From Escherichia coli (GTDB lineage: Bacteria; Pseudomonadota; Gammaproteobacteria; Enterobacterales; Enterobacteriaceae): a stretch of 64,000 bases of DNA. Below, one piece after another: positions 45,001 to 48,000 of this stretch (positions are counted from its first letter, which is position 1; every line of letters begins with the position of its first letter). Made by a program: the position numbers. The DNA is taken from NCBI RefSeq assembly GCF_003790525.1, contig NZ_CP033635.1; one strand, written 5' to 3'.

Positions 45001-48000
45001 GCGCAACAGACAAGGCGATAACATCTATTTTACCTTTTTTTTTCCCCGCTTCTGCCAGCAACTTGTTCACGTTTCCGTCGATATTCCCTTCCGGGATGCG
45101 CACCTTAACGCCGTACTGCTGCTCAAAATCCTTCACAAAGCTGCGCCACTGCGGCTGTAAGTACCAGACGTTAAAGGTCACGCTGCCCTCTTTTTTCGCT
45201 TGGGCAATCAGGTCGGGGCTATCCGCCGCCGTTGCCAGCGAGCTGCACAGCAGGCCGCCCGCCAGAATCATCACTGTTTTTTTCATCACATTATCTCCTG
45301 TAAAAGGTCAGGCTTTTCCCGTGGATTGCGACAGATAGTTCCCCTTCAGCAACTTCTCAATGATGACCATCAGGATGACATTGGGGATCACCAGAATCAT
45401 CGACACCACCGCCGCATCCGGGCGGACGAAGGAGTAGCCAAGGAAAGAGTAAAGAATGGTCGGAACGGTGATAAAGTCCGGCGCGCCCAGCACGTATGAG
45501 ATGCTGAACTCTTCCAGGCTTCGCACCAGACAAAAAATCAGCGCCGCCAGGAAGCTCGGTTTCAGCAGCGGCAGATAGGCATTGCAGAAGGTGTCCCACG
45601 CGCCGGAGCCCAGGTCGCGGCTGGCGTCGATCAGATCCTGCGGCACCGACTTAAACCCCGCAGACATAATGCGGATCGAATAGGGCAGCGTCAGTACCGT
45701 ATGGCCGATAACAATGCTGATAAACGCGTTGTCGATATTGAGGTTGATCAGCATGGCGCTGAAAAAAATCCCGATCAGCATCCCCGGCATCACCAGCGGG
45801 ATCAGAGTCAGCATCTCCGCCACCGCCTTACCGCGAAAGGTCATGCGCCCGAAGGCATACGCGGTGGGTAGCGACAGCAGCAGGCTGGCGACCGCTACCG
45901 CAGGCGCAATGGTGTAGCTGTTGAACAGCGCCTCGGAAAGCGAAGTCTTTTCCCATACCAGCAGCCAGCGGCTGAACGACAGCACGGGCGGGAAGATATC
46001 CGGGTAGCTCCACGGATGGGCCGGGTCAACCAGCGACCAGAGGATCGCCATGCCGAACGGCATGCCCAGCCAGATCAGATTAGCGACCACGAAGAAGATC
46101 AGCGAAATCGTCACCACCCGGCAACCGTTGGCAGTGTGGCTCATTTGACCTCTCCTTTGCGGGTGGCGAACGGGGTAATCAGTGTGGCTCATTTGACCTC
46201 TCCTTTGCGGGTGGCGAACGGGGTAATCAGTGTGGCAATCAGCAACGTGCAGATGGCCGCCGTGACCATAATGATCACCGCAATCACCGCCGCGTTATTC
46301 CACTCGCCGTACTCCATGGCGGTGGCCTGCATCAGCCGCGCCAGCGAGTAGGTGTTGCGTGGCCCGGCCACCGAGAAGAAGGCGAAGTCGCCCAGCGCGC
46401 CGATAAATACCAGAATCAGCGTCACCTGCACGGCGGGCAGCGTCAGCGGCACCACCACGCCGGTAAAACTGCGCCAGCGGCTGGCACCGAGATTGCTGGC
46501 GGCGTCCAGCACGTCGTTACGGATGGCGTTGACTGCGCCGCCGACGAGGATCAGGGCGAAGGGCAGGTTTTTCCAGATTTGCAGGATAACCACGCCCCAG
46601 CCGAAGTCATCGTTCTGCATCCGCAGCGGCTCGCTGATAATCCCCAGCGCCAGCAGCAGTTCGTTGATAATGCCGTGATAAGCGACGATATTGACGAACA
46701 GAAACGCCGCCACCAGACCGGGGATAAACATCGGCGCACGCAGCACCGCGATAATGCCCTCTTTATAGGCCATCGGTTTACGCAGCCACAGCGCCAGCGG
46801 ATAGGCGAAAATCACCGAGCCGAACGACCCCAGCAGTGACACTTTCACTGAGTAGAACAGGGCGCTTTGCAACACTTCGTCCTGCAACATATTGCGCCAG
46901 TATTCCAGCGAGAAATTGCTGTCGCCTTCGATGTTGAACCAGCCCAGGCTCTGGACGATCACCACATAAAACGTCGATCCCATCAGTAGTAGGATCGTGC
47001 CCAGCCCGCTGAGCATCAGCAGCCAGGCGACCGCATCATTGCGCCAGTTTTTCATGATACCGGCTCCAGAAAATGGATGGCGTTTTCCGCCAGACGGAAG
47101 CAGGCACTCTCGCCGGGGGCGACGGGCGGCTTTTTAATTAGATGTAAGCGGACCGATAACCCGCTGTCGTTGTGGCCCCAGGCTTCGGTGAGGTTGCCCA
47201 TAAAGGCCATTTTGTCGAGCGTCAGGGAGAAGTGGTTGTTGCCTGCCTGAGGCTGGCTGACATACTGCGCATCTTCCGGTCGCCAGCAGATATAGCAGTG
47301 CTCTGTGCGTGGCGGCTGTACGGAATGCACATAAAACTCGCCGAGGGCACAGCGTACCCGGTAATAGCCCGGCTGCTCTGAGGGCGTGACCTGCGCGGTG
47401 TCGATATTGGCCGCGCCGATAAAGTCGGCCACAAAGCGGTTGGCCGGACGGTAGTAAATCTCTTCCGGTTTGCCTATTTGCTCAACATTACCGGCGTTCA
47501 GCACCACAATTTTATCCGACATCGCCAGCGCTTCCGCCTGGTCGTGTGTGACGTAGATCGAGGTGAGCTGATACTGCCGCTGGAGTTCCTTGATTTCAAA
47601 ACGCACGCTTTCGCGCAGCTTGGCATCAAGGTTGGAGAGCGGTTCGTCGAACAGGATCACGTCCGGGCGGGTGATCATCGCCCGCGCCAGCGCCACGCGC
47701 TGCTGCTGGCCGCCGGAGAGCTGGGCGGGCATTTTCAGGCGCTGGCTCTCCAGCCCCACCTGCTTCAGCGCCTCCGTCAGCCGGTCCTGCTGTTCACTGA
47801 TAGCGACTTTTTTCTGCTTCAGGCCGAAGCAGATGTTGTGTGCCACGTTGAGGTGCGGAAACAGCGCATAGGACTGGAAACACATGGCGGTATTGCGCTT
47901 TTCTGGCGGCAGGGCGTTGACCGTTTTATCGCCAATCAGAATGCGTCCGCTGTCCGGCTGGTGAAAACCGCCGATCATTTTCAGCAGGGTGGTTTTACCG

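What the first reader, a model, noticed from the sequence alone, without database searches (positions are those of the whole stretch)
46133..46228. Perfect 48-bp tandem duplication across the junction of the two ABC permease genes
The duplicated unit contains the overlapping stop/start (ATGA) of the two permease genes, so the junction is present twice. This either adds 16 residues (MSHTDYPVRHPQRRGQ) to the downstream permease or provides two alternative start sites. Perfect identity implies a very recent event or an assembly artefact.
Basis: seen in the sequence. Interest (0 to 1): 0.45.

Follow-up and report, generated by a model that had tools for sequence, protein, structure and literature searches.

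The report
Slippage duplication at permease gene junction
A 48-base stretch spanning the stop of one transporter gene and the start of the next has been copied head-to-tail by replication slippage between two 9-base repeats; it is a real, widespread variant in poultry-associated E. coli, leaves both genes intact, and is an ordinary kind of mutation.

Summary
Window 46132-46236 holds two perfect 48-bp copies plus a 9-bp third start. It lies on the minus strand at the ATGA stop/start overlap of two ABC permease genes.

It is not an assembly artefact. The same duplication is in 3 closed E. coli genomes (China, Switzerland, Brazil) and in more than 20 other independent assemblies. Orthologues in other E. 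coli, Salmonella and Klebsiella have one copy.

The single-copy allele carries GCCACACTG at both ends of the 48-bp segment. That is the signature of a microhomology-mediated tandem duplication made by replication slippage.

The duplicate is nearly confined to one allele lineage of this accessory-island operon. All 3 closed genomes of that lineage have it, against 0 of 20 of the other lineage. Within that lineage both states occur on the same SNP haplotypes, so it has been lost or gained repeatedly, or moved by recombination.

Permease 1 is unchanged. Permease 2 keeps its native Shine-Dalgarno sequence and ATG, and gains a second identical start 48 nt upstream. That start would add a hydrophilic, net +2, 16-residue tail. 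Which start is used cannot be decided here.

The most likely reading is a near-neutral polymorphism of a known kind. Interest is low.

The parts
46132..46236 (-). Whole tandem array: 2 x 48 bp plus the 9-bp third microhomology copy
   Evidence: TRF: period 48, 2.2 copies, 100% identity; regex match in the window
46189..46236 (-). Copy 1 (upstream on the gene strand). It holds the real C-terminus and TGA stop of permease 1 (46189-46191), SD#1 (AGGAG, 46200-46204) and ATG#1 (46190-46192), which overlaps the stop as ATGA
   Evidence: Sequence read on the minus strand; ORF ends
46141..46188 (-). Copy 2. Read in the permease 2 frame it encodes residues 2-16 of the extension (SHTDYPVRHPQRRGQ). It carries SD#2 (46152-46156) and ATG#2 (46142-46144), the native start that matches orthologues
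   Evidence: PGAP annotates the gene from this ATG in closed genomes that carry the duplication
46132..46140 (-). Third copy of the 9-bp microhomology arm GCCACACTG. The other two are at 46180-46188 and 46228-46236
   Evidence: The single-copy alleles have exactly two arms 48 bp apart
46189..47055 (-). ABC permease 1 (288 aa, BPD_transp_1, PotB-like), unchanged by the duplication
45308..46192 (-). ABC permease 2: 294 aa from ATG#1, or the native 278 aa from ATG#2 at 46144 (BPD_transp_1, PotC-like)
47052..48119 (-). ABC ATP-binding subunit (355 aa), first gene of the operon; its end overlaps the start of permease 1
44210..45289 (-). Extracellular solute-binding protein (358/359 aa), last transporter gene. 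It contains an A9 tract at 45035-45043
48335..50293 (+). Divergently transcribed glycerophosphodiester phosphodiesterase (48335-49165) and ROK-family regulator (49181-50293), which give the operon its functional context

Best explanation
[quoted passage not shown] During replication the nascent strand slipped back from the downstream 9-mer to the upstream one and copied the 48-bp segment again, giving unit-unit-9mer (inferred mechanism). The segment is 16 codons long and holds the whole coupling cassette (end of permease 1, Shine-Dalgarno sequence, ATGA). Permease 1 therefore still ends at the same residue and stop. Permease 2 still has its native SD and ATG, and now has an identical SD-ATG 48 nt upstream that overlaps the permease 1 stop. 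Ribosomes that terminate permease 1 and re-initiate would make a 294-aa form with a hydrophilic, net +2, 16-residue N-terminal tail ahead of TM1. Ribosomes that load at the second SD would make the native 278-aa form. Both forms are expected to work, so the allele is near-neutral (inferred). It arose in, or early in, one allele lineage of this accessory-island transporter in E. coli, spread worldwide in poultry-associated strains, and has collapsed to one copy several times, or less probably re-formed or been moved by recombination.
For: The array is perfect, 2x48+9 bp. Single-copy E. coli and Salmonella alleles carry perfect 9-bp arms at exactly the duplication boundaries, whereas the arms are degenerate in Klebsiella and in a 78%-identical E. 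coli paralogous locus. The chance of a given 9-bp match is 4e-6. It is real: 3 closed genomes from China, Switzerland and Brazil carry it. The exact 294-aa ORF is on 43 contigs, and 9 of these loci were checked at DNA level. Orthologues start at MSHTAN with 278 aa. The lineage distribution is 3/3 closed genomes of the C8-allele lineage with the duplication versus 0/20 of the R8 lineage. Both states occur on the same haplotypes: the four-gamete test fails for SNPs 132 bp upstream and 382 bp downstream. Both starts have the same SD, the same spacing and similar predicted accessibility. The extension is hydrophilic, net +2, and precedes the first hydrophobic segment. All transporter ORFs in the window are intact. 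MTDs of 55-92 bp with 5-8 bp arms revert about 100 times faster than they form in S. pombe (PMC8639346). About 13,000 variable tandem-duplication loci, mostly with microhomology arms, are reported for E. coli (bioRxiv 10.64898/2026.02.28.708716).
Against: No reads were available, so the duplication was not verified in this particular assembly. Which start codon is used, and whether the 16-residue tail is harmless, are inferred and not measured. The homology of permease 2 to the solved PotC structure begins only at residue 76, so the cytoplasmic location of the N-terminus rests on general knowledge of 6-TM type I importer subunits. Recombinant haplotypes exist in this island (L008, L012), so recombination rather than repeated slippage could explain part of the haplotype incompatibility. 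The loci were not sampled at random, so allele frequencies are rough.
Confidence: 0.85

Rival explanations
1. Assembly or sequencing artefact: the genome really has one copy and the assembler or polisher introduced a second.
For: Perfect identity of the copies. The repeat (57 bp including the arm) is shorter than many k-mers, where graph loops can be mis-resolved. No reads could be inspected.
Against: The identical 105-bp structure is in 3 closed genomes from different laboratories and countries. It is in at least 15 further isolate assemblies, including Mb-scale contigs, and in a metagenome scaffold (L037). It tracks one allele lineage, 3/3 versus 0/20, which random artefacts would not do.
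Confidence: 0.02
2. Selected change in expression or proteoform. The duplication is kept because a second SD-ATG raises or uncouples permease 2 synthesis, or because the basic 16-residue tail improves membrane insertion. For example, it could compensate for the R8C substitution that removed one of the two arginines before TM1 in this allele lineage.
For: The duplication is the majority state in the C8-allele lineage and has persisted across continents despite the expected instability of tandem duplications. That lineage has C8 where other E. coli, Salmonella and Klebsiella have R8. The extension adds 3 Arg.
Against: Descent alone explains the association with the C8 lineage. Single-copy C8 alleles exist in at least 5 assemblies with intact operons. 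Predicted RNA accessibility does not differ between the starts. The solute-binding gene of the same operon is frameshifted in several carriers, which suggests weak selection on the transporter.
Confidence: 0.1
3. Contingency (phase-variable) locus: the repeat number switches at high rate to turn the transporter on and off.
For: Both states are found on the same haplotypes, which is compatible with frequent 2-to-1 collapse.
Against: The unit is 48 nt (16 codons), so a copy-number change never shifts the frame or removes a start or stop. Only 1 or 2 copies are seen, and a 3-copy product is not on record. No promoter-like element lies in the repeat.
Confidence: 0.03

Closest known systems
Microhomology-mediated tandem duplications (MTDs), as defined in S. 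pombe (PMC8639346) and surveyed across microbes (bioRxiv 10.64898/2026.02.28.708716)
   Same: A single-copy segment of tens of bp bounded by identical short arms is duplicated head to tail. The product is unit-unit-arm. It is polymorphic within a species and prone to collapse back to the original sequence. The unit length (48 bp) and arm length (9 bp) are in, or just above, the reported ranges (55-92 bp units, 5-8 bp arms).
   Different: The well-studied MTDs are frameshifting, loss-of-function and selectable. This one is in frame, spans a gene boundary and destroys nothing. Formation and reversion rates were not measured here.
Translational coupling through overlapping stop/start codons (ATGA) in bacterial operons (established knowledge)
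   Same: The single-copy orthologues have the 4-nt ATGA overlap, with the SD of permease 2 inside the 3' end of permease 1. The duplication preserves this arrangement at ATG#1.
   Different: There is now a second, identical SD-ATG 48 nt downstream, inside the newly extended ORF, so two N-terminal proteoforms are possible. Coupling itself was not tested.
PotB/PotC-type heterodimeric transmembrane subunits of type I ABC importers (PotABCD, PDB 8y5f)
   Same: Two adjacent BPD_transp_1 permease genes lie with a PotA/UgpC-like ATPase gene and a periplasmic binding protein gene. PotC is the best solved relative of permease 2 (E = 1.3e-14).
   Different: Scores are far below the PotB/PotC equivalog cut-offs (80 against 348, and 82 against 326). 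The neighbouring GDPD and ROK genes point to a different substrate, probably a glycerophosphodiester (inference).
Slipped-strand hot spots and short-homology rearrangements in E. coli
   Same: Misalignment between short direct repeats during replication produces precise duplications and deletions, with deletion of an existing tandem repeat far more frequent than its formation.
   Different: Those cases were defined by selection in the laboratory. This is a natural polymorphism in an accessory island.

Membership tests
Microhomology-mediated tandem duplication (MTD) | Head-to-tail duplication of a segment that is single-copy in related genomes | tested here: met
   2.2 perfect copies in the window. 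One copy in 20 closed E. coli genomes, Salmonella and Klebsiella.
Microhomology-mediated tandem duplication (MTD) | The single-copy allele has identical short arms at both ends of the segment, and the product is unit-unit-arm | tested here: met
   GCCACACTG lies at both boundaries of the single-copy alleles and three times in the array.
Microhomology-mediated tandem duplication (MTD) | Variable within the species, with both states on closely related backgrounds (reversible) | tested here: met
   Duplicated and single-copy states occur on haplotypes A, B and C. The four-gamete test fails at -132 and +382 bp. The direction of change (loss or gain) and the contribution of recombination are unresolved.
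Microhomology-mediated tandem duplication (MTD) | Arises by replication slippage, with measurable formation and reversion rates | not testable with these tools
   Needs fluctuation assays or ultra-deep sequencing of a clone.
Translationally coupled overlapping gene pair | Stop of the upstream gene overlaps the start of the downstream gene, with an SD inside the upstream gene | tested here: met
   ATGA overlap, with AGGAG 7 nt upstream of the ATG, in the window and in orthologues.
Translationally coupled overlapping gene pair | Downstream translation depends on upstream translation | not testable with these tools
   Needs reporter fusions with premature stops in permease 1.
BPD_transp_1 ABC importer permeases | Match to Pfam PF00528 and a neighbouring ABC ATPase and solute-binding protein | tested here: met
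   PF00528 is recorded for both permeases, with PF00005 and SBP_bac families recorded for the neighbours.
PotB / PotC equivalogs (spermidine/putrescine) | Score at or above the NCBIfam curated cut-off | tested here: not met
   79.8 against a cut-off of 348 (PotB), and 81.5 against 326 (PotC).
Phase-variable contingency repeat | A copy-number change shifts the reading frame or alters promoter spacing, giving an on/off switch | tested here: not met
   The unit is 48 nt (16 codons), and both genes are intact at 1 and 2 copies. No 3-copy form is on record. No promoter-like site lies in the repeat.
Assembly artefact | Present only in this assembly, or without phylogenetic pattern | tested here: not met
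   More than 20 independent assemblies carry it, including 3 closed genomes, and it is restricted to one lineage. Reads for this isolate were not available.

The most novel reading that the evidence does not exclude
The duplication is not neutral. It would be a reversible, selected modulator of the second permease: the extra coupled start and the basic 16-residue cytoplasmic tail would restore or tune membrane insertion or stoichiometry in an allele lineage that lost Arg8 next to TM1 (R8C). Slippage would let strains toggle between the two proteoform states.
Probability: 0.07. Interest if true: 0.4.

Novelty: new member of a known kind. Interest (0 to 1): 0.15.

Why it matters
This matters mostly for annotation and quality control. 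The duplication is real, so it should not be 'fixed' as an error. Gene callers disagree on the start of permease 2: PGAP gives 278 aa and leaves a 44-nt gap, while other callers give 294 aa. It is a clean natural example of a microhomology-mediated tandem duplication that spans a translationally coupled gene boundary without damaging either gene, and it could serve as a lineage marker for this poultry-associated E. coli island. It opens no new biological question. A recent survey reports about 13,000 variable tandem-duplication loci in E. coli alone.

Tried and rejected
1. A 3-copy (310-aa) product was looked up and is not on record, so there is no evidence of expansion beyond two copies.

2. 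Extended 294-aa versions of three Salmonella alleles and of the L019 variant unit are not in the collection. Independent origin in Salmonella is therefore unsupported, despite identical arms.

3. The R8-allele 294-aa form exists only on 4 pig/poultry metagenome scaffolds. The three examined have mosaic SNP haplotypes. I treated them as possible chimeras or recombinants and not as proof of an independent origin.

4. RNA folding and accessibility of the single and duplicated junctions show no meaningful difference between the starts.

5. The promoter/terminator scan and the Rfam scan of the operon found nothing in or near the repeat.

6. A JGI metagenome scan for the junction gave only 2 contigs, both single-copy. 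That is too few to estimate frequency.

7. Two literature searches for this island or operon found nothing.

8. Parsimony on an NJ tree gave 5 state changes. The tree is nearly unresolved and the sampling is biased, so I do not rely on that number.

Full report
**Observation.** Tandem Repeats Finder reports one array at window 46132-46236: period 48, 2.2 copies, 100% matches, no indels. All the genes here are on the minus strand:

| Gene | Window coordinates | Size |
|---|---|---|
| ABC ATPase | 47052-48119 | 355 aa |
| Permease 1 | 46189-47055 | 288 aa |
| Permease 2 | 45308-46192 | 294 aa from the first ATG |
| Solute-binding protein | 44210-45289 | 358/359 aa |
| sodC | 43590-44114 | 174 aa |

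On the gene strand the unit is GCCACACTGATTACCCCGTTCGCCACCCGCAAAGGAGAGGTCAAATGA. It holds the last 15 codons and the TGA of permease 1, an AGGAG Shine-Dalgarno sequence 7 nt before the ATG, and the ATG of permease 2 in an ATGA overlap. No comparable perfect duplication occurs elsewhere in the 64-kb window.

**The duplication is real.**
- The locus is an accessory E. coli operon present in 23 of 5,426 complete genomes.
- Three of those have the full 801-bp query in one piece and so carry the duplication: strain 135 (China), GF60 (Switzerland) and Br_112_kylling (Brazil). The other twenty align in two pieces over 753 bp and have one copy.
- The exact 294-aa ORF is on record on 43 contigs and is indexed in 58 blocks of the collection. 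Nine of these loci were fetched and all carry the identical 105-bp array.
- Further duplication carriers appear among loci fetched through the 278-aa protein or through permease 1, including Mb-scale contigs and a metagenome scaffold.
- An assembly artefact is therefore excluded as a general explanation, although I could not inspect this isolate's reads.

**Ancestral state and mechanism.**
- Salmonella and Klebsiella orthologues of permease 2 are 278 aa and start MSHTAN. Their DNA, and a 78%-identical chromosomal E. coli homologue, show a single ATGA junction.
- In the single-copy E. coli and Salmonella alleles, the 9-mer GCCACACTG sits at exactly the two boundaries of the 48-bp segment. The array in the window is unit-unit-9mer.
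- In Klebsiella and in the divergent E. coli locus the two 9-mers are not identical to each other: the upstream arm differs in both, and in the divergent E. coli locus the downstream one does too. Among the loci and exact-sequence look-ups I made, the duplication appeared only in E. coli. Salmonella has perfect arms, but its extended alleles are not in the collection.
- This is the defining anatomy of a microhomology-mediated tandem duplication (MTD), produced by replication slippage between the arms. Slippage itself is inferred.
- MTDs with 55-92 bp units and 5-8 bp arms were characterised in S. pombe, where reversion (about 1e-4) is about 100 times faster than formation (PMC8639346).
- A 2026 preprint reports about 13,000 variable tandem-duplication loci in E. 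coli genomes, most with microhomology arms (10.64898/2026.02.28.708716).

**Population pattern.** I aligned 3.6 kb around the junction, with the duplicate collapsed, from 23 isolate loci plus Salmonella as outgroup.
- Two E. coli lineages appear. One is an R8-allele lineage (AR_0085, TUM1886) that resembles Salmonella at many sites. The other is a derived C8-allele lineage with sub-haplotypes A, B (which includes the window) and C.
- Every duplication found in an isolate genome belongs to the C8 lineage. One of them, L012, is recombinant: its upstream half is R8-like and its downstream half is B-type.
- Among closed genomes the split is 3 of 3 for the C8 lineage and 0 of 20 for the R8-like lineage.
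- Within the C8 lineage, single-copy alleles also occur on haplotype A (L016, L018), B (L014) and C (L019), and in a metagenome contig (L032).
- The four-gamete test fails for SNPs only 132 bp upstream and 382 bp downstream of the junction.
- The simplest reading is one gain near the base of the C8 lineage followed by several collapses, since loss of a perfect 48-bp tandem repeat is expected to be much more frequent than its formation.
- Recurrent formation at the 9-bp arms is not excluded. Neither is short-patch recombination, because recombinant haplotypes L008 and L012 exist.
- A 294-aa form of the R8 allele exists only on four pig/poultry metagenome scaffolds. The three I examined have mosaic haplotypes, so I give them little weight.
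- No 3-copy product is on record.

**Consequences for the genes.**
- Permease 1 is unchanged, because copy 1 supplies its normal C-terminus and stop.
- Permease 2 now has two identical SD-ATG cassettes 48 nt apart and in frame.
- ATG#1 (46192) overlaps the permease 1 stop and would inherit any termination-reinitiation coupling, giving 294 aa. ATG#2 (46144) is the native start and gives 278 aa.
- PGAP annotates ATG#2 and leaves a 44-nt gap. Other callers choose ATG#1.
- Predicted RNA accessibility is the same for both starts.
- The extension is hydrophilic (mean Kyte-Doolittle −1.9), has net charge +2, and lies ahead of the first hydrophobic segment, which starts near native residue 10. This fits a cytoplasmic N-terminus under the positive-inside rule, which is inference: homology to solved PotC begins only at residue 76.
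- All transporter ORFs in the window are intact.
- I conclude the allele is probably near-neutral and yields a mixture of two N-terminal proteoforms. This step is inferred, not shown.

**Other checks.** No promoter-like or terminator-like site and no Rfam family lies in or next to the repeat.

**Comparison with the known, and novelty.**
- In mechanism and anatomy this is a member of the MTD class. All three sequence-level defining features were tested and met.
- It is not a contingency locus. The unit is 16 codons, so copy-number change cannot switch anything off.
- The permeases belong to BPD_transp_1 but are not PotB/PotC equivalogs, since their scores are far below the cut-offs.
- The divergent GDPD and ROK genes suggest a glycerophosphodiester importer (inference).
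- This particular duplication was not found described in the literature I searched. It is one more instance of a very common kind of variation.
- The least ordinary aspects are that it duplicates an entire translational-coupling cassette without harming either gene, and that it has persisted worldwide in one allele lineage.
- A speculative adaptive reading is that the basic tail compensates the R8C change before TM1. I rate it at about 7%.

**Verdict.** Interest is low (0.15).

Noticed in passing
window 45035-45043 (minus strand A9; solute-binding protein gene, codons ~82-84): The C8-allele lineage has an A9 homopolymer (GKKKG) where the R8 lineage has A7GG (GKKRG). Assemblies L007 and L020 (A8), L015 (A10), L016 (A7) and L021 (one G lost after the A9) have length changes there that frameshift the binding-protein gene. 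This is either a real slippage hot spot inactivating the transporter or homopolymer sequencing error.
   Followed up: partly
window 31807-32282, inside ORF 31129-32850 (+): A 99-bp tandem repeat, 4.8 copies at 98% identity (33-residue coding repeats), lies in a 573-aa protein with a YadA-like membrane anchor, so a trimeric autotransporter adhesin with a variable stalk.
   Followed up: partly
window 42430-56447 versus flanks: Only about 14 kb (sodC, transporter, GDPD, ROK, AbgT transporter, part of an S6-peptidase autotransporter gene) is collinear at 99.6% with the strain 135 island, which also carries a ter tellurite cluster and many IS fragments. The flanking content of the window differs, so the island is mosaic.
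   Followed up: partly
L022/L023 (Salmonella) and L025 (E. coli Z1323HEC0067): The same operon lies next to TraI_2 relaxase and integrase genes in Salmonella, which looks like ICE or island cargo. A 78%-identical version sits between rsmJ and dtpB in two human E. coli genomes, without sodC, suggesting an older chromosomal copy and later mobilisation.
   Followed up: no
L005/L038 (GCA_045584695.1), sodC: sodC downstream of the operon is frameshifted (136-aa call) in one duplication-carrying assembly. In L017 the 3' end of the binding-protein gene is replaced by unrelated sequence.
   Followed up: no
protein cluster 1: The 90%-identity protein cluster holding permease 2 also contains 288-aa Klebsiella permease 1 sequences that are only about 24% identical. 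This is apparently a clustering artefact, so cluster membership counts for this protein should be read with care.
   Followed up: no
L026-L028 (ENA MUNK18 pig/poultry faecal metagenome scaffolds): These scaffolds combine the duplication with R8-type alleles in mosaic SNP patterns not seen in isolates. They are either strain-chimeric metagenome assembly or genuine recombinants.
   Followed up: partly
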